A stretch of DNA of 47,688 bases from Minisyncoccia bacterium (lineage in GTDB: Bacteria > Patescibacteriota > Minisyncoccia > SW-4-49-11), in contig JBIIRM010000008.1 of assembly GCA_044341565.1 (NCBI GenBank), positions 1 to 47,688 of the forward strand, given 5' to 3'. Both the position numbers and the translations under genes were made by a program. This document shows positions 5,366 through 47,512 of this stretch, piece by piece. The notes under the pieces were generated by a model. The model made no database searches, had not been told where the DNA came from, and saw only the letters and a list, made by a program, of their open reading frames with translations. Position 1 is the stretch's first letter. Each line of letters opens with the position of its first letter.

Positions 5366-5987
5366 AGAGAAAATTACATTAGGATATGTCCTTACAAAAT
5401 ATCGGCTAAAGTCGAATTTAACCACGGAACAATTAGCTGATAAATTATCTATTGAAGAAAAATATCTAATTGCTCTTGAAAAAGGAGATTATCATGAATT
5501 TACTTCATTAAATCAACCCTTTCCCATTATTAAGAGGCTAAGTTATGTATTTGGACTTAAATATAATGTTTTAATCGAATTATATCATCAAGAATATGAA
5601 ATTTATATACATCAATTAGATCAAAAAAAAGCAAAACCTAAACTGATTATTAGTCATACTATGATGAGAATGTTTATAGGTATTACTATAGGATTGATTG
5701 TCGTAATATATTTAGGAATACAAGTATATCAATTAGGATATACTCCGGTATTAACACTTAATAATAAAGATAGCTATGAAATTAATAATAATACAGAATA
5801 TACTTTGACAGGAGATATATCAAGAGCGGGACAATTGACTTTAAATGGACAAAAGGTTACACTTAAAGAAGATGGGAAATTTGAAGTTATATTATCCCTA
5901 AGAGATGGAGAAAATAGATTAGAATTACAAGTTTCAAAAGATAATAAACCATTAAAAACAACACAAAAAATTGTGTATAAACAATAA
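5358..5987 (+). CDS. HTH (XRE-type) domain, single TM and beta-rich extracytoplasmic domain; RodZ-like architecture
   Basis: MSKEKITLGYVLTKYRLKSNLTTEQLADKLSIEEKYLIALEKGDY is a helix-turn-helix. The TM segment is MMRMFIGITIGLIVVIYLGIQVY. The start ATG 5358 overlaps the ftsK stop (ATGAGTAA). Confidence 0.65.
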   Translation: MSKEKITLGYVLTKYRLKSNLTTEQLADKLSIEEKYLIALEKGDYHEFTSLNQPFPIIKRLSYVFGLKYNVLIELYHQEYEIYIHQLDQKKAKPKLIISHTMMRMFIGITIGLIVVIYLGIQVYQLGYTPVLTLNNKDSYEINNNTEYTLTGDISRAGQLTLNGQKVTLKEDGKFEVILSLRDGENRLELQVSKDNKPLKTTQKIVYKQ

Positions 5988-17453: not shown

Positions 17454-17956
17454 TTTCCACCCCTTTCCCTGCTACCCCTCAATTTATCTCCCGTAGGGAG
17501 AGAGGGGAATTAGCTAAGTCCACACCCGTCGACTTTGTCGACACCCTCGCCGGCGAGGCCTGCCTGCGGTAGGCAGGGACAGTTTTATTGTCCTCCCTTG
17601 GGGGAGCTTTGGTTCCTCCTATATTTGTTTAGGAGGGGGTGCCCGTAATAGACTGAAGGTCTGGGAAAGGGGTCGGGAAAACAGAAGTTTTCCCGTGGAG
17701 GAAGGTTGGGAAACCGTGAGGTTTCACAGGAGCAAATCCCATTTGCGACGGGGGAGGGAGGATAGAGTTTAAGTTTGTATTTTATCCACCCCGTCCAGCA
17801 AAGCTGTCCACCCCTCAAGAGGGGAATATATACAATGTACTGTCCTAAAAATTCCCCTCATGGGTTGTGAGTAGATAGGAGTCAGTATATAACAAAGTGC
17901 TTTGTCCGAAAAATTCCCCTCTTGAGGGGTGCCGTCGCTAGACGGCGGGGTGGAAA
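17454..17956 (+). repeat. G+C-rich mosaic stem-loop cassette, copy A (the largest), bounded by a 10-nt inverted repeat
   Basis: TTTCCACCCC (17454-17463) and GGGGTGGAAA (17947-17956). At least 11 short perfect GC-rich hairpins are present. The backbone is shared with 38577-38778, 42131-42206 and 47131-47305. Confidence 0.85.
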
Positions 17957-17959
17957 GTA

Positions 17960-30061: not shown

Positions 30062-31408
30062 ATGGCAGGGAATAATTCTCTTGATTCATTTACCAAAAAT
30101 CGCAACGTAATTATTATTGCTGGTGTCGCTATATTAGCTATTGTTATATTGATGCTTGGTAATGCGCTTGGATTCAAAATTGGAGGTGAGAAAAAAGTAC
30201 AAAAAGCAAATTTGGTAGTATGGGGAGTCTGGGATGAAAGTGAGACAATGACGAAATTGGGAAGTGATTTTCGTAAAATATATCCTAATGTAAGTATAGA
30301 ATATCGTAAATTCAAGCCACAAGATTATGAGACAGAACTTATTAATGCTTTAGCTGAGGGACGAGGTCCAGATATATTGGCAATGGAGAGAACTTGGCTT
30401 GGTAAACATAAGAATAAGTTAGCCCCAATGCCAGAAGAAATTATGACACTCAAAGAGTATCAAGATACTTTTGTAGATGTGGTTAATCAAGATTTTATTG
30501 ATGAGGGTAAAATATATGGATTCTCTCTATACACCGATACTTTAGCATTATTATATAACAAAGATGCTTTTAATGATGCTGGAATTGCAAATCCACCAGT
30601 AACTTGGGAAGAATTACAAAGTATAGTACCCAAATTAACTAAAATAGATCAATTTGGTGAGATTAAACAGGCGGGAGTTGCATTAGGTACAGGAGATAAT
30701 ATAAATCGTTCACCAGATGTTTTGATGGCATTAATGTTACAGTCTGGAGCTCAATTTACTGACCCTAAAGATACTAGTAGAATTACTTTTTCTCAAAGTA
30801 AAAATGTCAATGGACAAAATATAAATCCTGCTCAATTATCTTTAGCTTATTATACCGATTTTGCTAATCCTCGAAAAGGAGTATATACCTGGAATTCAAC
30901 CTTAAATAATTCAATAGATGCTTTTTATGAAAGAGAAGTTGCTATGATATTTGGATATTCATATCAGGTAGAAGCAATTAAAGCAAAAGCCCCAAGACTT
31001 AATTTTGCAGTAGCTCCTCTCCCTCAGGTATCTACAGATTCTGGCCTTGCTAATTTTGCAAATTATTGGGGATATGGAGTAAGTGGTCAATCTAAATACC
31101 CAAAAGAAGCCTTTGCATTCCTCAAATCAGCCACTGAAAAGGAAAATGCTCAAGAGTATTTCTTGAAAACCAAGCGCCCAACAGCCAGAAGAGATTTAGT
31201 AGATACACAATCACAAGACATTGATTATGGAGTATTTGTAAAACAAATATTACAAGCTAAAACCTGGAGACAACCCGATAATAATTCAGTAGATAAAATA
31301 TTTATCAATGCTATTAATGGAGTAAATTCAGGATTACTTGACTATAGTAAAGCTATTTCGCAAGCTCAAACAGAAATACAGACATTAGCTGATAATGTGA
31401 AAAAATGA
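30062..31408 (+). CDS. ABC-transporter-type extracellular solute-binding protein (family 1, sugar-like), N-terminally membrane-anchored
   Basis: TM anchor VIIIAGVAILAIVILML, then VVWGVWDESE...YPNVSIEYRKFKPQDYETELINALAEGRGPDILAM...YNKDAF, typical of SBP_bac_1. No permease or ATPase gene is adjacent. Confidence 0.8.
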   Translation: MAGNNSLDSFTKNRNVIIIAGVAILAIVILMLGNALGFKIGGEKKVQKANLVVWGVWDESETMTKLGSDFRKIYPNVSIEYRKFKPQDYETELINALAEGRGPDILAMERTWLGKHKNKLAPMPEEIMTLKEYQDTFVDVVNQDFIDEGKIYGFSLYTDTLALLYNKDAFNDAGIANPPVTWEELQSIVPKLTKIDQFGEIKQAGVALGTGDNINRSPDVLMALMLQSGAQFTDPKDTSRITFSQSKNVNGQNINPAQLSLAYYTDFANPRKGVYTWNSTLNNSIDAFYEREVAMIFGYSYQVEAIKAKAPRLNFAVAPLPQVSTDSGLANFANYWGYGVSGQSKYPKEAFAFLKSATEKENAQEYFLKTKRPTARRDLVDTQSQDIDYGVFVKQILQAKTWRQPDNNSVDKIFINAINGVNSGLLDYSKAISQAQTEIQTLADNVKK

Positions 31409-32730
31409 AATATATAAAGTTCAGTATAGTTTTTGGTATAATATTCTTAGTAGTTTCATTTTTTAGTATTAACTATACTAATGCACAGAGTGCAGATGGA
31501 GCTTGTAGTGCAGGGGCAACATCATTAGAGCAAAACTGTACTTTTCAAAATGGAAGCTCTCGTTTAAATGGAAAATGCCAGGTTAAAGATAAAAATAATC
31601 CAGGTTTAGGATTAACTTGTCGTACTAGCTTAGGATCATCCTGCTCAGGTGATACTTGTCAAAATGGATTAGCCTGTATTAATCAGGTTTGTTCCAGTCC
31701 AAGAGGGGCTAAAACTCAAGGTCAATCTTGTTCAGGGAATGGAAATGAATGTATTGCAGGTCTTGAATGTAGAAATTTTATATGTACAAAAGAAGCTGCC
31801 ATTACTGGTGGAGGGTCTGGGCAAACTGGAGGTGGTCAAGTCGGTACCCCTGGAGGCTCAACAGGGGCAGAAACAGGCCTTGTTAAATGTGGAGTGAGTC
31901 GAGATTGTACTATTTGTGATATATTTATCTTAATTCGAGATATCTTTAATTTTGCTTTAGGGCTACTAGCCTCACTCGCGGTATTAAGTGTTGTTATTGG
32001 TGGGGTCTATGTGTTGACTTCAGCAGGTAATCCTGGAGCGGTAAGTACAGGATATGGCATTATTACCAATGCAGTAATTGGACTATTACTCGTAATGGCA
32101 AGCTTTCTCTTATTTAGTTTCCTTCTTGTGGGGCTTGGATTTCAAGAACAAAATTTCTCAGCTGTACTTACTTTTCAACCAGGTAAAGTATTCGAGGTAA
32201 AATGTGATAATGCTAGTACTTTTAATGATAATGGATCAAATGGAGGAGGGTCTGCTGTACTGGGTAATGGTGGGAGTAACTCATCAACTATAAGTTGTGC
32301 GAGTTTAAATGATTCGGTTAAGGCGGATTTAAATAATGCTAGTTCTCAGACGGGTGTTCCTTCTGAACTATTGGCTGGAATTATGCAAAGAGAATGTCCT
32401 GCAGCCTTTAATAATGCTAATGCTTGTCCAAATGAAAATGGCTCTGGAGCAGCTGGAGCAGGTCAATTTTTACAAAGTAGCTGGAATGAGCTGGGATGTA
32501 GTGGAAGTAGAACGAATCGAAGAGATGCCCTTGTTTGTATGGGGAAACATTTAAAACGGTATAATAAATGTTCTAGTCAATGTAATGGATATTCTAATTT
32601 TTCATCCAGAGCTTGTTCTGATTGTGTGGCAGGAGATTATTGTGGTGCATGTTCAGGTTCATCAGCTTGTGGAGGTAATTATTGTGATGGGGTGTGGAGT
32701 AACTATCAAAAATTTAAAACATGTAAATAA
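31405..32730 (+). CDS. secreted Cys-rich domain, T4SS-pilin-like TM hairpin and C-terminal Cys-rich lytic-transglycosylase-like domain (fusion)
   Basis: Signal peptide MKYIKFSIVFGIIFLVVSFFSINYTNA. Cys-rich repeats follow the pattern C.G..C..GL.C.N..C. The pilin core is FNFALGLLASLAVLSVVIGGVYVLTSAGNPGAVSTGYGIITNAVIGLLLVMASFLLF (about 31897-32155). The SLT-like motifs are ELLAGIMQRECP...GAAGAGQFLQSSW (about 32302-32730). The ATG overlaps the SBP stop (ATGA). Confidence 0.7.
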   Translation: MKYIKFSIVFGIIFLVVSFFSINYTNAQSADGACSAGATSLEQNCTFQNGSSRLNGKCQVKDKNNPGLGLTCRTSLGSSCSGDTCQNGLACINQVCSSPRGAKTQGQSCSGNGNECIAGLECRNFICTKEAAITGGGSGQTGGGQVGTPGGSTGAETGLVKCGVSRDCTICDIFILIRDIFNFALGLLASLAVLSVVIGGVYVLTSAGNPGAVSTGYGIITNAVIGLLLVMASFLLFSFLLVGLGFQEQNFSAVLTFQPGKVFEVKCDNASTFNDNGSNGGGSAVLGNGGSNSSTISCASLNDSVKADLNNASSQTGVPSELLAGIMQRECPAAFNNANACPNENGSGAAGAGQFLQSSWNELGCSGSRTNRRDALVCMGKHLKRYNKCSSQCNGYSNFSSRACSDCVAGDYCGACSGSSACGGNYCDGVWSNYQKFKTCK

Positions 32731-32734
32731 TAAT

Positions 32735-33841
32735 ATGAATAAAATCTTCAGTCTATTTTTACTAATAGCATCTTTCTATTCTATTTCTCCAGTATATGCA
32801 GATACTAGTATATACTCAAGTTTCTTATATCCAAGTTTTGCTGTAAATAATGAAATTTTATATTTTGATCAATATGCAGGAGCTATTGTGAAACAAAATG
32901 TTATTACTGGTGAGAAGTCAGAGATATTTGATTTAATACCTTCTGCTACTAACTTAGTATCAATTTCTCCTGAACAATCTAAAATATTACTTTATCCTCC
33001 TAATATATCATTTCCAAAATATCAAGCACCATTTTTTGATAGTTCAAGAAAATCTCCCGATAATCAATGGTGGGTATATGATTTTAATACAACAAATAAA
33101 ATACTACTAGATGATAAAATTAATTTAGTTGGCTGGTATTCTGATAATGAAATTATATATGTATTTAATAATAAAGATATCACAGTTGCCCCAACCAATG
33201 ACCTATCTAAATTTAATATTCTATACTCTAATATACCATCTAATGTGGATATTAATAAACAAATTATAGCAAATGATAACCATCAAATAATTCCATTAGT
33301 TGATGGTTATCTTGTGGGAAATAAGAAAAACTTTGTATATCAAAAAAGTACTAATTATCAAATTTCAGCCAATCCAAAATTGAATTATTTTTTGGAATAT
33401 AATAATAGTCAGATAAAAGTTTTTGATTGGGATAGTAAGCAAGTAGGTAGTATTATTAATATCAGTAACAGGAAAGCTTTGTTACTGAATAATGATACTA
33501 TAGCTATATTGGCTACAAATGGTAATTTGATACAATATAATTTACAAGGGCAGGAGCAATCAAATGTATCATTAAATCCAATAGTTACTGATATATATTC
33601 GGTTGATCAATCTGGAAATGAACTATTAATTAATCAAAATAATCAAATACGTACTTATAATTTATTAAAAAAAGAGCAGGGAACCATCCTATTATCCACC
33701 AATACTCCTACTCCTAATACTGACACAAATTCAGAGACAGAACAATCCAACACATTAGGGAATATTGCTATTTTAATAGGAGGAATAGTATTCCTTGCTG
33801 GGGGACTGGGGCTATTTATTTGGAAATTAAGAAAAAGATGA
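32735..33841 (+). CDS. secreted beta-propeller-like protein with a C-terminal TM anchor
   Basis: The true start ATG 32735 gives the signal peptide MNKIFSLFLLIASFYSISPVYA. The body is Asn/Ile-rich and beta-strand-like with PD40/TolB-like strings (ISPEQSKILLY, WWVYDFNT). The C-terminal anchor is IAILIGGIVFLAGGLGLFIWKLRKR. Confidence 0.6.
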   Translation: MNKIFSLFLLIASFYSISPVYADTSIYSSFLYPSFAVNNEILYFDQYAGAIVKQNVITGEKSEIFDLIPSATNLVSISPEQSKILLYPPNISFPKYQAPFFDSSRKSPDNQWWVYDFNTTNKILLDDKINLVGWYSDNEIIYVFNNKDITVAPTNDLSKFNILYSNIPSNVDINKQIIANDNHQIIPLVDGYLVGNKKNFVYQKSTNYQISANPKLNYFLEYNNSQIKVFDWDSKQVGSIINISNRKALLLNNDTIAILATNGNLIQYNLQGQEQSNVSLNPIVTDIYSVDQSGNELLINQNNQIRTYNLLKKEQGTILLSTNTPTPNTDTNSETEQSNTLGNIAILIGGIVFLAGGLGLFIWKLRKR

Positions 33842-33871
33842 TATAATTAAAAATAATTAAATACAGATACT

Positions 33872-34711
33872 ATGAAATTAATCATATCTACAGCATTTGG
33901 AATTGTCTTTGCACTAGTATTCTTTAGTAATTCTAATATAACACTTGCTCAATGTGGAAGTGGTCCAAGCTGTACAGGGAATTTTGTTTGTGTGAACGCA
34001 GATGGTACTCCTAAATGTTTGCTAAATCAGGTTAGTAATAATGGTTTATGTGAGGGCGACTCTTCTGTGAAATGTTCAGCAAATCAAGCTTGTATTCAAA
34101 ATAATGCAACAGAAATTGTATGTGCCCCTTTAGCGGGATCATCAGCTAATACAAATTTACCAGGTTCTGGAAGTACAACAACTTGTCCAACCTGTAAATC
34201 TGGTGAAACATGTATTAAGAGTGCAGCAGGACCACTCGTATGTAGATCCGCCGCTACAAATTGTACTCCTGCTTGTACAACAGGTAAGGTGTGTGTTAAA
34301 GCAACGCCAACAGCAACTACTGGAACTTGTGTAGATAATGCGCCTACTCAAGCTGCTGGAGGAGCTGGTGGTAATGGTGCTGGAGGGAATGGATCTTCAG
34401 GAGGAAGTGGTGGTGGCTTATTAGAAGGTCTCAATGCTTTTGGTAGTGCAGATTCTGGACTTAATACAGAGGGAACTCTCATTGGGTTTATTTCTAATAT
34501 TATTCGTTGGATATTAGGACTTCTTGGAACTGTGTTCTTTGTAATCATAGTTTTACAAGGGTATCTTTATATGACATCTTCAGGAGATGCGAGTAAAACA
34601 GCAGCAGCTACGGGGGCTATTACTAATGCAGTAATAGGACTACTGATTATTATGGGAGCTTTCCTCATTACTAATTTTGTGACAAGTGGTTTGATTGCCG
34701 CTGGGTCTTAA
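33872..34711 (+). CDS. T4SS-pilin-like protein, paralogue 1, with a long Cys-rich N-terminal extension and Gly-rich linker
   Basis: Signal peptide MKLIISTAFGIVFALVFFSNSNITLA, then about 20 Cys in C..G..C-type repeats and the linker AGGAGGNGAGGNGSSGGSGGG. The pilin core is IIRWILGLLGTVFFVIIVLQGYLYMTSSGDASKTAAATGAITNAVIGLLIIMGAFLITNF. Confidence 0.8.
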   Translation: MKLIISTAFGIVFALVFFSNSNITLAQCGSGPSCTGNFVCVNADGTPKCLLNQVSNNGLCEGDSSVKCSANQACIQNNATEIVCAPLAGSSANTNLPGSGSTTTCPTCKSGETCIKSAAGPLVCRSAATNCTPACTTGKVCVKATPTATTGTCVDNAPTQAAGGAGGNGAGGNGSSGGSGGGLLEGLNAFGSADSGLNTEGTLIGFISNIIRWILGLLGTVFFVIIVLQGYLYMTSSGDASKTAAATGAITNAVIGLLIIMGAFLITNFVTSGLIAAGS

Positions 34712-34721
34712 TATCTTATAT

Positions 34722-35069
34722 ATGATAGAAGCATTTATATCCAATTTCATCATAGTAACAGCTAAAGCCCAGGAGACATCGCCTCCTCCTATATTAGCTA
34801 TACCTACAGGAACAGGAGTGGGGGAGCAAGGAGATCTGTTTACTTTTGTGTCAGCTATTGTGCAATGGGGATTGGGATTAATAGGGATAGTATTATTTGT
34901 ACTTATACTCTTTTCTGGATTCCAATATGCAACAGCAGGGGGCGACTCTAAAAAAACTGAAGAAGCTATTAGTAGAATTACTTCTGCAGTAATCGGAGTA
35001 TTCATTGTAGGGGTGGCTTTTATACTATCCAATGCAGTATTAGGATTTGTTTTTAGTCTAGGATCTTAA
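34722..35069 (+). CDS. T4SS-pilin-like protein (TrbC/VirB2-type two-TM hairpin), paralogue 2
   Basis: The core is IVQWGLGLIGIVLFVLILFSGFQYATAGGDSKKTEEAISRITSAVIGVFIVGVAFILSNAVLGFVF. The start is trimmed to ATG 34722, after the upstream stop at 34711. Confidence 0.8.
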   Translation: MIEAFISNFIIVTAKAQETSPPPILAIPTGTGVGEQGDLFTFVSAIVQWGLGLIGIVLFVLILFSGFQYATAGGDSKKTEEAISRITSAVIGVFIVGVAFILSNAVLGFVFSLGS

Positions 35070-35097
35070 TATACTGACTTATCCACAATAGTATCAC

Positions 35098-35126
35098 TTG
35101 CATAGTAATATAAGATATGATAGTAT
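35098..35126 (+). promoter_or_regulatory. candidate promoter for pilin paralogue 3
   Basis: TTGCAT (35098-35103), a 17-nt spacer, then TAGTAT (35121-35126) in the 100-bp A+T-rich spacer. Confidence 0.25.
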
Positions 35127-35169
35127 AAAAACATAGAACATATTATTCAATAATTATTAAGATATTCTT

Positions 35170-35553
35170 ATGAATACTTCCCAGATAAAATCAATAGCAA
35201 CAAGAGCATTATTACCTGTATTAGTATTAGCTCCTACTTTAGCTGGAGCTGCAACTCCCATAAAAGATACTAGAGTCATAGGTGAAATACCTCAAGTAGC
35301 TGGTACTAATCAATCTACTGACCTTGTGGCTACAGTACAAGTGGTTATTCAATGGGCATTAGGATTTATCGGAATTGTAATATTCATTATTTTCTTATTT
35401 GCAGGATTTGAATATGCAACAGCAGGAGGAGATGAAGGAAAAGCAAAAACTGCACAGTCTCGAATGATTAACGCGGTAATTGGACTTATTATTATATTCT
35501 TTGCCTTTGTAGCTTCAAATGCAATATTGTCATTCGTATTCCCAGGAAATTAA
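35170..35553 (+). CDS. T4SS-pilin-like protein, paralogue 3
   Basis: Signal-like N-terminus ...LVLAPTLAGAATP. The core is VIQWALGFIGIVIFIIFLFAGFEYATAGGDEGKAKTAQSRMINAVIGLIIIFFAFVASNAILSFVFP. Confidence 0.85.
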   Translation: MNTSQIKSIATRALLPVLVLAPTLAGAATPIKDTRVIGEIPQVAGTNQSTDLVATVQVVIQWALGFIGIVIFIIFLFAGFEYATAGGDEGKAKTAQSRMINAVIGLIIIFFAFVASNAILSFVFPGN

Positions 35554-35573
35554 TCAAATTGATAGATACTATG

Positions 35574-35610
35574 AAACAATAAAAAGGGATTATATCCCTT
35601 TTTATTGTTT
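35574..35610 (+). terminator. rho-independent terminator-like hairpin after pilin paralogue 3
   Basis: AAACAATAAAAAGGGAT-tat-ATCCCTTTTTATTGTTT is a 17-bp perfect stem whose 3' arm carries a T-run. Confidence 0.65.
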
Positions 35611-35697
35611 AGAGAATACATATTCAAATAGTATAATCTTCTTGTCAGATAATAGAATACTTGATATACTTGTAATATATAGAATAGTAAAATAGAT

Positions 35698-36114
35698 ATG
35701 AGAGTCTTATTGATTATAATAGCTTTATTGATGGGGGTATTTGTATTAAGTTCTAATATATCTCTAGCTCAAAGAGCCCCTGATGCCACTCTCCCTGGTC
35801 CAGGAACAATCCCAATTAATACCGGAATAGCTGAGGGACCAAGCTTGATAGAAACAGTGTCTATTATTATAAGGTGGATATTAGGATTTATTGGAATTAT
35901 AATATTTATTATATTCCTATATGCAGGATTTGAATATGCAACAGCAGGAGGGGATGAGAAGCAGGCTGAATCAGCTCAAAAAAGAATGGTAAATGCAATC
36001 ATAGGACTGATTATTATATTCTTTGCATTTGTATTGTCGAATGCAGTATTAAGCTTTGTATTTCCTCCAGACGATACAGTAGATGATCCTAATATGCCAT
36101 TAAATGTAAATTAG
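35698..36114 (+). CDS. T4SS-pilin-like protein, paralogue 4
   Basis: Signal peptide MRVLLIIIALLMGVFVLSSNISLA. The core is IIRWILGFIGIIIFIIFLYAGFEYATAGGDEKQAESAQKRMVNAIIGLIIIFFAFVLSNAVLSFVFP. Confidence 0.85.
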   Translation: MRVLLIIIALLMGVFVLSSNISLAQRAPDATLPGPGTIPINTGIAEGPSLIETVSIIIRWILGFIGIIIFIIFLYAGFEYATAGGDEKQAESAQKRMVNAIIGLIIIFFAFVLSNAVLSFVFPPDDTVDDPNMPLNVN

Positions 36115-36115
36115 T

Positions 36116-36556
36116 ATGAAATATCTATCAATAGTAATAATTGCAATAATGATACTAATGAGTAATCCTTTTATTAGCTTTGCAGGTACCCCATCAGGGG
36201 GAGGAACTACTCCAGCTACGGGTGGTACTCCATCAGGGGGAGGAACTACTCCAGCTACGGGTGGTACTCCCACAACCCCAACTGACAATACTTCTGCTCA
36301 AAGTGTAGGATTTGTGAATCCAATTCGATTTAATTCTATCCCTGAGCTTATAGCAGGTATTATCAATGCTCTCTTGGGTATACTCGGAGCTATTACTGTG
36401 GCAATATTAGTGATGTCAGGATTTAAATATATGACAGCTTCTAATCCAGGAGCAGTAGGGCAAGCTTTAGATGGTATTAGGAATGCAATTGTAGGACTTA
36501 TGATTATTATGGGGGCTTTTCTCATCACACAATATATTATATCTGCTTTGGTGTAA
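36116..36556 (+). CDS. T4SS-pilin-like protein, paralogue 5, with a tandem Thr/Pro/Gly repeat
   Basis: Signal-like MKYLSIVIIAIMILMSNPFISFA, then (GTPSGGGTTPATG)x2. The core is IINALLGILGAITVAILVMSGFKYMTASNPGAVGQALDGIRNAIVGLMIIMGAFLITQY. Confidence 0.85.
   Translation: MKYLSIVIIAIMILMSNPFISFAGTPSGGGTTPATGGTPSGGGTTPATGGTPTTPTDNTSAQSVGFVNPIRFNSIPELIAGIINALLGILGAITVAILVMSGFKYMTASNPGAVGQALDGIRNAIVGLMIIMGAFLITQYIISALV
36185..36262 (+). repeat. two tandem copies of a 39-bp coding repeat
   Basis: GGTACCCCATCAGGGGGAGGAACTACTCCAGCTACGGGT (36185-36223) is repeated at 36224-36262 with 2 substitutions. Each copy encodes GTPSGGGTTPATG, and a partial third unit (GTPTTPT) follows. Confidence 0.9.
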
Positions 36557-38460: not shown

Positions 38461-38576
38461 TTTGTGAATGAACGAGGGACTTCTTATTCATAACACAAAA
38501 TCATAAATTTGTCAACTCATAATAACAGGTGTATATACATAAAATTATTCCGACTCAGGTCAATGAGTACTTATAA

Positions 38577-38778
38577 TGTCCTCCCTTGGGGGAGGTGGGG
38601 AAAGGGGTCGGGAAAACGAGAGGTTTCACAGGAGCAAATTTTATTTGCGACGGAGGAGGATAATTCAAAAAGTCCACACCCACCGCTAACGCGGTACCCC
38701 CTCGCCAGCGAGTGACAGATTTAATATCCTCCCCCGGGGGAGGATAAAATAGTACAGGCGACTGAAAGGTCGCCCCTA
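38577..38778 (+). repeat. G+C-rich mosaic stem-loop cassette, copy B
   Basis: A 17-nt run GTCCTCCCTTGGGGGAG (38577-38593) is identical to 17590-17606. GGGAAAGGGGTCGGGAAAAC, GAGCAAAT-ttt-ATTTGCGACG (38631-38651) and AAGTCCACACCC (38669-38680) are all shared with copy A. A 22-nt perfect palindrome lies at 38724-38745. Confidence 0.85.
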
Positions 38779-38821
38779 CAAAATTGATAATTCACAACTA
38801 TTACTTCATCTCAACCTTGTA

Positions 38822-38850
38822 TTGACAAATAGCACTATATATACTACAAT
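38822..38850 (+). promoter_or_regulatory. candidate sigma70-type promoter of the rpsL-rpsG-fusA operon
   Basis: TTGACA (38822-38827), a 17-nt spacer, then TACAAT (38845-38850), 81 nt upstream of the rpsL ATG. Confidence 0.5.
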
Positions 38851-38931
38851 AGAACAAGTTCCCAAAAGAGGTGTGCTTTTGAGTGTCTTTAGGTGTAAAG
38901 ATGCTCACCCCGCTAATTATAATTATTATTT

Positions 38932-42073: not shown

Positions 42074-42099
42074 CCTGAGAATAAAAACTCAGGTTTTTT
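42074..42099 (+). terminator. rho-independent terminator after fusA
   Basis: CCTGAG-aataaaaa-CTCAGG followed by TTTTTT (42094-42099). Confidence 0.7.
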
Positions 42100-42130
42100 G
42101 GTATATACTCACTATAGGTAATCCTCCTCC

Positions 42131-42206
42131 GTTCCTCCTATATATAATAGGAGGAACACCTCCCCCCAAGGGAGGACAGAAATTTTGTCCCTCGCCAGCG
42201 AGGGAC
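42131..42206 (-). repeat. G+C-rich mosaic stem-loop cassette, copy C (condensed, inverted relative to copy A)
   Basis: GTTCCTCCT-n9-AGGAGGAAC (42131-42157). CTCCCCCCAAGGGAGGACAGAAATTTTGTCCC (42160-42191) matches the reverse complement of 17576-17606 with one extra C and a changed loop. GTCCCTCGC-ca-GCGAGGGAC lies at 42187-42206. Confidence 0.8.
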
Positions 42207-42253
42207 AATAATACGTTTATGCTATACTGTAAGTATTACTATAATTATCCTTT

Positions 42254-46974: not shown

Positions 46975-47060
46975 GGAGAGTTCGCATAGTTGGTCTAGTG
47001 CGCACGCTTGGAAAGCGTGTATACCGCAAGGTATCAAGAGTTCGAATCTCTTACTCTCCG
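46975..47060 (+). tRNA. tRNA-Ser (anticodon GGA), class II with a long variable arm
   Basis: Acceptor GGAGAGT/ACTCTCC plus discriminator G. D-arm GCA/TGC with a GG loop. Anticodon stem CACGC/GCGTG with loop TTGGAAA. Variable arm ATACC-gcaa-GGTAT. T-arm AAGAG-TTCGAAT-CTCTT. No CCA is encoded. Confidence 0.93.
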
Positions 47061-47063
47061 CAA

Positions 47064-47101: not shown

Positions 47102-47130
47102 CCGTGAGTTAGTAAAGAGAAATTCGAACT

Positions 47131-47305
47131 CGGGAAGGGGTCGGGAAACGGAAGTTTCCTGTGGCGGAAGTAATCAATACCCCTAGATAGGAAGGCAATG
47201 AGGAGCTTGCTCCGAATGTCGGAAACCGTGGGTGTCCGAGATGGGGTTGTAGGGGTATTGAGGGAACTGAGGGGGTTTCAAAGAGCAAATCCCATTTGCG
47301 ACGAG
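47131..47305 (+). repeat. G+C-rich mosaic stem-loop cassette, copy D
   Basis: CGGGAAGGGGTCGGGAAACGGAAGTTTCCTGTGGCGGAAG (47131-47170) is colinear with 17662-17704. GGAAACCGTGGGTGTCC is present. The 21-nt core GAGCAAATCCCATTTGCGACG (47283-47303) is identical to 17730-17750. More hairpins follow up to about 47413. Confidence 0.85.
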
Positions 47306-47325
47306 TTCGGAATCTCTTACTATCT
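47303..47325 (+). repeat. degenerate direct repeat of the tRNA-Ser 3' end (att-like)
   Basis: GAGTTCGGAATCTCTTACTATCT compared with GAGTTCGAATCTCTTACTCTCC in the tRNA (47038-47059): one inserted G and two substitutions near the 3' end. Confidence 0.75.
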
Positions 47326-47512
47326 ATATTCCGACACTCGGGAATAAATCCCTCGCTGCCTTCCTGCACGGGGGATTTTGCCTTCATACATACGATGTAT
47401 GAAATCCTGAAGGAGTTATTTAGATTCAAACTTCATTTTTAATTGGACTAAATAAATTTTAGTTGGTATTCTATTTATTAGGTGGTATATCAGTTAATCT
47501 AAAAATAATTTT

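What the first reader, a model, noticed from the sequence alone, without database searches (positions are those of the whole stretch)
42131..42206. A third, condensed cassette copy lies in inverted orientation just after the fusA terminator
The segment 42160-42191 (CTCCCCCCAAGGGAGGACAGAAATTTTGTCCC) is the reverse complement of copy A 17576-17606 (GGGACAGTTTTATTGTCCTCCCTTGGGGGAG). It has one extra C and a different loop inside the GGACA...TGTCC stem. It is flanked by GTTCCTCCT-n9-AGGAGGAAC (42131-42157; A: 17612-17637) and GTCCCTCGC-ca-GCGAGGGAC (42187-42206; A: CCTCGCCGGCGAGG). Module order matches inverted A, but the CCTGCCT/AGGCAGG hairpin is absent. The family therefore occurs in both orientations relative to flanking genes. 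That argues against a simple orientation-dependent role such as a terminator, and a canonical terminator (42074-42099) already precedes this copy.
Basis: seen in the sequence. Interest (0 to 1): 0.5.

Follow-up and report, generated by a model that had tools for sequence, protein, structure and literature searches.

The report
Inverted hairpin repeat unit after fusA
The sequence between fusA and rarA is a real, full-length, inverted copy of a short GC-rich two-hairpin repeat; such repeats litter the gene spacers of this tiny-genome (Patescibacteria) bacterium and its relatives, and behave like selfish REP/BIME-type mobile DNA, not like terminators.

Summary
Window 42160-42191 is the reverse complement of 17576-17606, with one extra C and a different AT loop, and the flanking hairpins follow in the same order.

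It is far beyond chance. The local alignment scores 53, against 15.8±2.5 for shuffles. A covariance model built only from copies in other genomes hits 42119-42180(-) at 50.9 bits, E=1.6e-13.

- A complete "type I" unit at 42121-42178 on the minus strand: TGTCCTCCC-TTGG-GGGAGG, GTG, a variable hairpin, then GGAGGAGGA.
- A "type II" hairpin at 42185-42208.

Copy C is the near-canonical form. Copy A is the same pair expanded by nested inserts.

About 10 related Paceibacteria MAGs carry the family. It is confined to spacers and shows no orientation bias (20 sense, 17 antisense). It occurs in tandem, convergent and divergent spacers. The variable hairpin covaries.

The fusA-rarA spacer is empty (86-90 nt) in four of six related lineages, including the outgroup. 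In the other two it holds different units.

RayT-like HUH transposase genes exist in two element-bearing relatives, but their link to the units is only inferred.

Best reading: a new REP/BIME-like variant. Similar units occur in Bacteroidota and in one viral contig. Rfam's Whalefall-1 motif is the closest described relative, below threshold.

The parts
42074..42099 (+). Intrinsic-terminator-like hairpin after fusA: CCTGAG-AATAAAAA-CTCAGG followed by TTTTTT. Shared with L004 and L208. L002, L207, L209 and L007 have a different terminator here.
   Evidence: Sequence; alignment A1; spacers
42121..42178 (-). Complete type I repeat unit (copy C). Read on the minus strand: TGTCCTCCCTTGGGGGGAG (42178-42160), GTG, long variable hairpin TTCCTCCT-ATTATATAT-AGGAGGAA (42156-42132), C, GGAGGAGGAT (42130-42121).
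   Evidence: CM R1 hit at 42119-42180(-), 50.9 bits, E 1.6e-13; regex census; the same long-hairpin subtype occurs in L120, L140, L153, L195 and L202; RNA and DNA folds, z -4.4 to -8.0
42179..42184 (.). AT-rich 6-nt linker (GAAATT) between the type II hairpin and the type I unit.
   Evidence: The recurrent II-(5-8 nt AT)-I composite is seen in L106, L109, L132, L136, L147, L153, L159, L175 and L120
42185..42208 (.). Type II family hairpin TTGTCCCTCGC-CA-GCGAGGGACAA. It is a perfect 11-bp palindrome, so its strand cannot be assigned. The 5' half of a full type II unit (TCCACACCC plus a variable hairpin) is missing.
   Evidence: Hairpin scan; the same variant occurs upstream of type I in L152 and L140
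42220..42228 (+). Extended -10 promoter of rarA (TGCTATACT). It is conserved as TGnTATA(C/A)T in all relatives, whether the spacer is empty or occupied.
   Evidence: Alignment A1; spacers
17518..17581 (+). Copy A, type II unit: GTCCACACCC, GTCGAC-TTT-GTCGAC, ACCCTCGCCGGCGAGG, the nested CCTGCCT-GCGGT-AGGCAGG hairpin (17559-17577), then GACA.
   Evidence: Sequence; the same nested form occurs in L167; R1 cross-hit at 17516-17583(-), 19.9 bits
17589..17763 (+). Copy A, type I unit expanded by nesting. Layout: hp1 17589-17606; inserted TTCCTCCT...AGGAGG hairpin 17607-17638; left half of the variable hairpin, GTGCCCGTA, 17639-17647; nested ~102-nt element 17648-17749; closing GGGGGAGGGAGGAT 17750-17763.
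   Evidence: Sequence; the same nested arrangements occur in L152, L124, L127 and L209; R1 hit, 22.8 bits
38577..38661 (+). Copy B, a type I unit whose variable hairpin is replaced by a shortened copy of the ~102-nt element. It ends in GGAGGAGGAT.
   Evidence: Repeat families D14 and D4; sequence; R1 hit, 30.3 bits
38672..38717 (+). Type II unit: GTCCACACCC, ACCGC-TAA-CGCGGT, ACCCCCTCGCCAGCGAGTGACA.
   Evidence: Sequence; R1 cross-hit at 38670-38719(-)
38757..38779 (+). REP-like module GGCGAC-TGAAAG-GTCGCC-CCTAC (reverse complement: GTAG followed by a hairpin). It sits at the edge of the cluster with CTAC facing outward.
   Evidence: Cluster maps; similar hairpin+CTCTAC repeats flank a RayT-like gene in L211
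17785..17827 (+). Type III unit: TCCACCCC, a variable hairpin, then CACCCCTCAAGAGGGGAAT. A second copy lies inverted at 17913-17954.
   Evidence: Sequence; k-mer census; R1 cross-hit at 17911-17957, 20.7 bits

Best explanation
Copy C is a full-length type I member of a lineage-wide superfamily of short (about 40-60 nt) GC-rich repeat units.

Each unit has three pieces:
- a family-specific hairpin (here CCTCCC-TTGG-GGGAGG);
- a variable hairpin whose stem covaries;
- a purine-rich closing segment (GGAGGAGGA) that can pair back to the 5' end.

In the window, C sits next to a type II hairpin, in the recurrent II-then-I arrangement. Relative to copy A it is inverted. Copy A is the same pair with further units nested inside it.

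Shown here:
- The units are multi-copy and confined to spacers.
- They show no orientation bias relative to transcription.
- They differ in presence and content among strains that are about 95% identical.
- They lack target-site duplications.
- They tend to lie beside or inside one another, producing BIME-like mosaics.

Inferred:
- They are selfish, non-autonomous DNA that spreads by copy-and-paste as single-stranded hairpins.
- The most likely mobiliser is a RayT-like HUH (Y1) transposase supplied in trans.
- They persist in spots that do not disturb expression. In this spacer that spot is between the fusA terminator and the rarA extended -10 promoter.
- Any effect on the host, such as acting as a two-way transcription barrier, would be incidental.
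For: Family membership: CM R1, built from other genomes, hits 42119-42180(-) at E 1.6e-13.

Copy number and spread: the exact 17-base core recurs about 50 times in about 10 Paceibacteria/Parcubacteria MAGs. In unrelated high-GC genomes it occurs only singly. None of the module motifs searched occurs in about 0.9 Mb of more distant Patescibacteria loci, apart from a short GGACA...TGTCC pattern and one 9-mer match.

Spacers only: the apparent in-gene hits are spurious ORFs running across the GC-rich clusters, or in one case the last codons of a real ORF.

Orientation: 20 sense and 17 antisense, with copies in all spacer types.

Turnover:
- The fusA-rarA spacer is empty in L002, L003, L207, L209, L007 and L008. 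It is filled with other units in L004 and L208.
- The empty state is shared by the 86%-identical outgroup, so it is ancestral.
- A clean single-unit indel of 32 nt separates L004 from L208.

Hairpin constraint:
- Covariation score in the variable hairpin is 0.185 against 0.065 in shuffles, 0 of 500 shuffles as high.
- G.T mismatches on the unit's own strand outnumber A.C mismatches 10 to 1.

Nesting and recurrent composites.

No target-site duplications.

Candidate mobiliser:
- L166:595-1155(-) matches NCBIfam REP_Tyr_transpos at E 4e-17 and has HUH and Tyr motifs.
- Two paralogues occur in the element-bearing MAG JAULZW01.
- A homologue in L211 is flanked by hairpin+CTCTAC repeats. These resemble the window's GTAG-type module at 38757-38779.
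Against: Movement was not observed directly.

The link to the transposase is weak:
- The RayT-like genes score below the curated cut-offs (62 bits against 80; Pfam 18.8 against 23).
- In the element-bearing MAGs they are not flanked by these units.
- None lies in the window.
- Only about 7% of the related genomes was sampled.

Type I and II units lack the 5' GTAG that RayT needs in E. coli (PMC3479197).

The derived fusA-rarA spacer differs from the empty one over its whole length, including the terminator. It is therefore a replacement, not a clean insertion.

The covariation and the G.T asymmetry would fit an RNA function equally well. Many copies are related by descent, so the counts are not independent events.
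Confidence: 0.6

Rival explanations
1. The units are structured RNAs: a multi-copy small RNA family related to Rfam Whalefall-1, or cis-acting hairpins that protect or terminate neighbouring mRNAs. On this reading the hairpins are selected at the RNA level.
For: - Whalefall-1 (RF01762) is the only Rfam family that repeatedly touches the units. It scores 21.9 bits at 42157-42208(-), and gives five more hits of 21.7-25 bits in 57 kb of related loci.
- Weinberg et al. rated that motif as certainly an RNA (PMC2864571).
- The variable hairpin covaries.
- G.T pairs are tolerated on one strand.
- Loops are often GNRA, UUCG or CUUG-like (sequence).
- Folds are very stable, z -4.4 to -6.8.
Against: - All hits are below the gathering score of 37.
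- There is no conserved promoter or terminator around the units. Flanks are variable apart from a short T-rich run upstream and recurrent linker motifs downstream.
- Orientation relative to genes shows no bias.
- Copy C lies downstream of a terminator and upstream of the next promoter.
- Units are absent from orthologous spacers of close relatives.
- Units nest inside each other's loops.
Confidence: 0.15
2. The units are host-selected DNA sites. They might be binding or structural sites for a nucleoid, topoisomerase or recombination protein, or two-way transcription insulators placed between genes.
For: - They lie strictly in spacers, between terminator and promoter or between divergent promoters.
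- Lack of orientation bias fits a palindromic DNA site.
- E. coli BIMEs are known to bind IHF (PMC3479197) and gyrase (own knowledge).
- The minus-strand scan finds terminator-like hairpin+T sites inside copy C.
Against: - The units are dispensable. The same spacer is empty in L002/L003, L207, L209 and L007/L008, and holds unrelated units in L004 and L208.
- Many different unit families and nested forms are hard to reconcile with one binding protein.
- Closely similar units also occur in a different phylum and in a viral ORF.
Confidence: 0.1
3. The clusters are guide-RNA arrays, such as TIGR-Tas stem-loop arrays or degenerate CRISPR. These are known from Patescibacteria.
For: TIGR stem-loop arrays have variable but consistently palindromic stems and are reported in CPR bacteria (PMC12045711). 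CUGA occurs in some loops (sequence).
Against: - There is no box C (UGAUGA) / box D frame and no 36-nt periodicity.
- The clusters are scattered genome-wide, not at one locus.
- No Nop-domain or Cas gene was found among the 39 window proteins scanned.
- The variable parts are self-complementary stems, not spacers.
Confidence: 0.02
4. The similarity between C and A is chance similarity among GC-rich palindromes in an AT-rich genome, or an assembly artefact.
For: Short CCTCC/GGAGG palindromes are low in complexity.
Against: - The alignment score lies about 15 sd above shuffles.
- CM hit at E 1.6e-13.
- An identical spacer occurs in an independent Logan assembly, L001.
- The family occurs in many independent assemblies.
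Confidence: 0.01

Closest known systems
REP / BIME elements with RayT (REP-associated tyrosine transposase), including REPINs
   Same: - Short GC-rich imperfect palindromes.
- Tens of copies per genome in the best-sampled MAG, confined to extragenic space.
- Occur in both orientations and combine into mosaics with recurrent linkers.
- No target-site duplication.
- Variable between strains.
- RayT-like HUH genes are present in related genomes.
- One module in the same clusters (38757-38779) has the GTAG-plus-hairpin layout.
   Different: - Type I and II units have two hairpins plus a closing segment, not one hairpin.
- They have no GTAG at the hairpin foot.
- Units nest inside each other's loops.
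- The RayT-like genes found are not flanked by the units; two sit inside type I restriction-modification operons.
- The host is a Patescibacteria genome presumed to be about 1 Mb (genome size from own knowledge of the phylum, not measured here).
Whalefall-1 RNA motif (Rfam RF01762; Weinberg et al. 2010, PMC2864571)
   Same: Same layout: a conserved hairpin CUCUCC-UUGG-GGAGAG, then a variable hairpin, then a purine-rich 3' segment GGGUGAGGAC. The model repeatedly aligns to the units. It is known only from environmental DNA of unknown organisms.
   Different: All matches score 21.7-25 bits against a gathering score of 37. The sequence differs. Whalefall-1 was interpreted as a non-coding RNA gene, not as dispersed repeat DNA.
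MITEs and palindrome-associated elements derived from IS200/IS605 (own knowledge)
   Same: Non-autonomous, hairpin-rich and spacer-located. The II-then-I pair resembles a left-end plus right-end remnant. In Roseivirga the two hairpins are 55-100 nt apart.
   Different: No target-site duplication. No full-length parent element with the same ends was seen. The units are much shorter than typical MITEs.
Pneumococcal BOX elements, cyanobacterial small dispersed repeats and yeast mitochondrial GC clusters (own knowledge, not tested here)
   Same: Modular or nested short repeats. GC-rich palindromes stand out in AT-rich spacers. The mobilising mechanism is unknown.
   Different: No sequence relationship was tested or is expected. 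Different hosts. These are analogies only.

Membership tests
REP/BIME-RayT system | Short imperfect palindromes in high copy number, confined to extragenic DNA | tested here: met
   About 50 exact-core copies in about 10 related MAGs. 73 relaxed-pattern copies in 575 kb, all effectively in spacers.
REP/BIME-RayT system | Conserved GTAG tetranucleotide 5' of the hairpin foot (PMC3479197) | tested here: not met
   Copy C and the type I and II consensus have no GTAG at the foot. GTAG appears only inside the commonest variable-hairpin loop (CCGTAGG). It also appears in a different module, GGCGAC..GTCGCC-CCTAC, at 38757-38779.
REP/BIME-RayT system | A RayT gene in the same genome, typically flanked by its REPs | tested here: inconclusive
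   RayT-like ORFs are present in JBIKVS01 (L166; NCBIfam 62.3 bits, cut-off 80) and twice in JAULZW01 (L213, L214), but they are not flanked by the units. None lies in the window. Only a small part of each genome was available.
REP/BIME-RayT system | Units combined in mosaics with recurrent partners and linkers (BIME-like) | tested here: met
   The II-(5-8 nt)-I composite occurs in at least 9 loci. The I-TGAGCTAAAT-III(inverted) composite also recurs. The GTAG-type module sits at cluster edges.
REP/BIME-RayT system | RayT binds the hairpin and cuts single-stranded DNA at CT | not testable with these tools
   This needs biochemistry. The only hint is that the ~102-nt element is nested between C and T of CCCCC^TACGGG.
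MITE | Terminal inverted repeats plus a target-site duplication | tested here: not met
   The 8-bp ends TGTCCTCC/GGAGGACA exist. However, 52 copies show no direct repeat beyond the 2-5 nt matches seen in the AT-rich flanks (not compared with a shuffled control).
Intrinsic (Rho-independent) terminator | GC-rich hairpin followed by a U-run, oriented with the upstream gene | tested here: not met
   On the + strand no hairpin of copy C is followed by a T-run. A separate terminator already precedes it. The family is 20 sense to 17 antisense and also lies in divergent spacers.
Whalefall-1 RNA (RF01762) | Score at or above Rfam's gathering threshold (37 bits) | tested here: not met
   21.9 bits in the window. 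21.7-25 bits at five related units. Nothing at gathering level in the window or in 144 kb of related loci.
TIGR-Tas array | Tandem units with box C/D motifs and dual spacers next to a Nop-domain Tas gene (PMC12045711) | tested here: not met
   No Nop-domain protein among the 39 window ORFs scanned. The clusters are dispersed. The variable parts are self-complementary.

The most novel reading that the evidence does not exclude
The units belong to a cross-phylum superfamily of modular, nestable two-hairpin elements. On this reading the superfamily is present in Patescibacteria, in Bacteroidota (including the cultured Roseivirga ehrenbergii KMM 6017) and in at least one virus. It would also include the orphan Whalefall-1 'RNA' motif. 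The elements would act as strand-specific single-stranded DNA substrates of RayT-like HUH enzymes and move between phyla, possibly between an epibiont and its host or through phages.
Probability: 0.25. Interest if true: 0.65.

Novelty: new variant of a known kind. Interest (0 to 1): 0.45.

Why it matters
Patescibacteria are usually described as having small, streamlined genomes with little room for junk. Here the spacers of housekeeping operons carry a diverse and fast-changing population of hairpin repeats, so selfish DNA persists even in such genomes.

The units are sensitive strain markers: the same spacer differs among strains that are about 95% identical.

They would also mislead annotation in three ways:
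- They produce spurious ORFs.
- They produce false terminator and small-RNA calls.
- They may explain an orphan Rfam motif.

If the link to RayT-like genes and to Bacteroidota holds, a cultured host (Roseivirga) becomes available in which to test how REP-like DNA spreads.

Tried and rejected
- Metagenome scan for RarA relatives. It returned only distant homologues (61% identity or less). None of the module motifs searched occurs in their loci, apart from a short GGACA...TGTCC pattern and one 9-mer match.
- Rfam at gathering level on the window and on 144 kb of related loci. Only RNase P and tRNAs were found.
- Rfam on the Roseivirga unit. Nothing.
- TIGR-Tas and CRISPR arrays. Rejected: no box C/D, no Tas or Cas gene, and the clusters are dispersed.
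- Integron attC sites. Considered because of GTT...AAC ends, but rejected on the sequence and gene content seen: the flanking genes are conserved housekeeping genes, there is no cassette array, and no integrase was found among the window proteins scanned.
- Terminator role. Rejected by the orientation census and by the position behind a separate terminator.
- Target-site duplications. None found.
- In-gene insertions in Patescibacteria. The candidates are spurious ORFs across GC-rich clusters, or in one case the last codons of a real ORF.
- RayT-like gene in the window. None.
- Literature search for such repeats in Patescibacteria/Parcubacteria. Nothing relevant in the held library.
- The promoter/terminator scan did not list the + strand fusA terminator, which is plain in the sequence. 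I rely on the sequence for that feature.

Full report
**Context**

The window is a 47.7-kb contig of about 34% G+C. It carries housekeeping genes, six tandem T4SS-pilin paralogues and the rpsL-rpsG-fusA operon followed by a short rarA. RarA homologues carry source names from Patescibacteria, and the closest genomes are labelled Paceibacteria/Parcubacteria. No transposase, integrase, Cas or Nop-domain protein was found among the 39 window ORFs scanned.

GC-rich perfect hairpins are concentrated in three spacers, and a fourth spacer is GC-rich:
- 17455-17957
- 38570-38780
- 42120-42208
- 47107-47390 (GC-rich; it holds the ~102-nt element rather than perfect hairpins)

**The observation**

Segment 42160-42191 is the reverse complement of 17576-17606, with one extra C and a different AT stretch. 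The hairpins at 42131-42157 and 42187-42206 follow in the order of inverted copy A. The CCTGCCT hairpin is missing.

The match is not chance:
- Local alignment score is 53. Two thousand dinucleotide shuffles give 15.8±2.5, with a maximum of 29.
- rc(A) is the best non-self match to C anywhere in the window.
- An independent Logan assembly has the identical spacer.

**What the unit is**

A scan of one genome per species for the core TGTCCTCCCTTGGGG(N1-2)AG found about 50 copies. They lie in about 10 related Patescibacteria MAGs. Unrelated high-GC genomes gave only single hits.

Aligned, these copies define a canonical unit of about 45 nt:
- TGTCCTCCC-TTGG-GGGAGG, the first hairpin
- GTG
- a variable hairpin
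- C-GGAGGAGGAC

A covariance model built from 28 such copies, none of them from the window, gives these window hits:

| Window hit | Strand | Bits | E-value | Identity |
|---|---|---|---|---|
| 42119-42180 | - | 50.9 | 1.6e-13 | copy C, full length |
| 38575-38639 | + | 30.3 | 4.3e-07 | copy B |
| 17587-17643 | + | 22.8 | 9.7e-05 | copy A |
| 17911-17957 | + | 20.7 | 4.4e-04 | type III unit |
| 17516-17583 | - | 19.9 | 7.6e-04 | type II unit |
| 38670-38719 | - | 16.0 | 0.012 | type II unit |

The weaker hits to type II and III units show that all these unit types share one architecture.

So copy C is a complete type I unit on the minus strand, at 42121-42178.
- Its variable hairpin is the long TTCCTCCT...AGGAGGAA subtype, also seen in L120, L140, L153, L195 and L202.
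- This II-(5-8 nt AT)-I pair recurs in at least nine other loci.

Copy A is the same pair with three nested additions, each seen elsewhere:
- the CCTGCCT hairpin inside the type II unit, as in L167;
- a TTCCTCCT hairpin after the first hairpin, as in L152;
- a ~102-nt element inside the loop of the variable hairpin, as in L124, L127 and L209.

C is therefore near-canonical and A is the expanded form.

**Behaviour of the family**

Location and orientation:
- In 575 kb from 64 loci the type I unit is effectively always in spacers. The few in-gene hits are spurious ORFs across the clusters, or in one case the last codons of a real ORF.
- In tandem spacers it is 20 times sense and 17 times antisense.
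- It also lies in convergent (11) and divergent (8) spacers.
- A second unit family is 12 sense to 14 antisense.

Sequence features:
- There is no target-site duplication.
- The variable hairpin keeps pairing through compensatory changes: UA/GC/CG at one pair and AU/CG at another. The covariation score is 0.185 against 0.065 in shuffles, with 0 of 500 shuffles as high.
- G.T mismatches on the unit's own strand outnumber A.C mismatches 10 to 1. This points to a single-stranded form of one strand. The events are not all independent.

**Orthologous spacers**

Among five lineages that are 94-96% identical in fusA, plus an 86% outgroup, the fusA-rarA spacer looks like this:

| Locus | Spacer | Content |
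|---|---|---|
| L002/L003 | 87 nt | terminator and promoter only |
| L207 | 88 nt | terminator and promoter only |
| L209 (outgroup) | 86 nt | terminator and promoter only |
| L007/L008 (outgroup) | 90 nt | terminator and promoter only |
| window | 206 nt | the type I unit (copy C) plus the type II hairpin |
| L208 | 268 nt | the window's terminator, then different units |
| L004 | 277 nt | the window's terminator, then different units |

The empty state is therefore ancestral, and the occupied state turns over quickly.

In the neighbouring Band7-rpsL spacer, L004 differs from L208 by one clean 32-nt unit, CCCTCC-loop-GGAGGG-ACAAAAGC.

The rarA extended -10 promoter (TGnTATACT, 42220-42228) and the rpsL promoter and leader are conserved in all lineages. 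The units sit between these functional signals.

**Mechanism**

A RayT-like HUH transposase is the best candidate mobiliser, but this is inferred.

In favour:
- tblastn with E. coli RayT found a 186-aa ORF in the element-rich MAG JBIKVS01 (L166:595-1155, minus strand).
- That ORF has the motifs MPNHFHGII and FYDHIIRNE. It matches NCBIfam REP_Tyr_transpos at E 4e-17, 62 bits against a cut-off of 80. Pfam Y1_Tnp gives 18.8 bits against 23.
- Homologues are common in Patescibacteria.
- Two paralogues lie in another element-bearing MAG, each just upstream of hsdR in a type I restriction-modification operon.
- A homologue in a further genome (L211) is flanked by hairpin+CTCTAC repeats.
- The window's clusters contain a module of that kind, GGCGAC-loop-GTCGCC-CCTAC at 38757-38779. 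Across loci it sits at cluster edges with CTAC facing outward.

Against:
- Type I and II units lack the foot-GTAG that E. coli RayT requires (PMC3479197).
- The RayT-like genes in the element-bearing MAGs are not flanked by the units.
- None is in the window.

I therefore describe the units as working like REP/BIME elements. I do not file them as members of that family.

**Rivals**

- RNA function. It is supported by the covariation, by tetraloop-like loops and by repeated sub-threshold Whalefall-1 hits (21.7-25 bits against a gathering score of 37). Against it: orientation shows no bias, there are no conserved promoters, C lies behind a terminator, the units nest, and they are dispensable.
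- Host-selected DNA site or insulator. This cannot be excluded, but it fits poorly with the presence/absence pattern and the many unit families.
- TIGR/CRISPR arrays, chance similarity and assembly artefact are rejected.

**Wider distribution**

- Closely similar type I units occur in Bacteroidota. The carriers include the isolate Roseivirga ehrenbergii KMM 6017 and MAGs of Roseivirga, Saprospiraceae, Cyclobacteriaceae and unclassified Bacteroidetes.
- In Roseivirga a type II-like hairpin (CCCCCGCCAGCGGGGG) precedes the type I-like hairpin by 55-100 nt. This suggests the II+I pair represents the two ends of one element.
- One viral contig carries a full unit inside an ORF.
- None of the module motifs searched was found in about 0.9 Mb of more distant Patescibacteria loci, apart from a short GGACA...TGTCC pattern and one 9-mer match.
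- No description of such repeats in Patescibacteria was found in the held literature.

**Verdict**

The feature is a new variant of a known kind, REP/BIME-like palindromic repeat DNA. It is of moderate interest because of its host, its nesting, its fast turnover, and the possible links across phyla and to Whalefall-1.

Noticed in passing
window 47107-47325: Just after tRNA-Ser(GGA) (46975-47061) and its terminator lies a copy of the ~102-nt GGGAAGGGGTCGGG...ATTTGCGAC element. It is bracketed by an inverted copy (47110-47130) and a direct copy (47303-47325) of the tRNA-Ser 3' end. The arrangement is syntenic in L004 and L007. It could be a remnant of tRNA-targeted integration, or a long closing stem.
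   Followed up: partly
L123, L177, L197 (Roseivirga ehrenbergii KMM 6017); L149, L170, L150, L158, L193, L204: Closely similar type I units occur in Bacteroidota, including a cultured isolate. An example is TGTCCTCCCTTGGGGGAGGTG-hairpin-GGAGGGGGA. In Roseivirga a CCCCCGCCAGCGGGGG hairpin lies 55-100 nt upstream in the same orientation.
   Followed up: partly
L215 5824-5861 (IMGVR_UViG_3300038701_002518): A viral contig carries a full type I unit inside a 176-aa ORF (5445-5975, minus strand), where it encodes ..TPSACGTSPKGGQP.. This may be an in-frame insertion of the kind known for Rickettsia palindromic elements.
   Followed up: no
L213 4001-4678 and L214 5001-5663 (MAG JAULZW01): Two RayT-like paralogues (84% identical) each sit inside a type I restriction-modification operon, directly upstream of hsdR. 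This is an unusual, domesticated-looking setting.
   Followed up: no
window 42157-42208(-); L101, L120, L141, L182: The orphan Rfam motif Whalefall-1 (RF01762, known only from whale-fall metagenome DNA) repeatedly aligns to these units at 21.7-25 bits and has the same three-part layout. It may itself be a dispersed repeat of this kind.
   Followed up: partly
window 31405-36556: Six consecutive genes encode T4SS_pilin-domain proteins. Their C-terminal segments are repeated at the DNA level (families D1, D3 and D7). A 39-nt perfect tandem repeat lies at 36185-36262.
   Followed up: no
window 38815-38931: The rpsL promoter (TTGACA-N17-TATACT type) and an ~80-nt leader (AGTTCCCAAAAGAGGTGTGCTTTTGAG...CTCACCCCGC) are nearly invariant across all relatives, while the rest of the spacer turns over. 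This may be a ribosomal-protein leader structure.
   Followed up: no
window 47109-47429(-) and several ORFs in related loci: The GC-rich repeat clusters create spurious ORFs of 80-180 codons, which gene callers could annotate as hypothetical proteins.
   Followed up: yes
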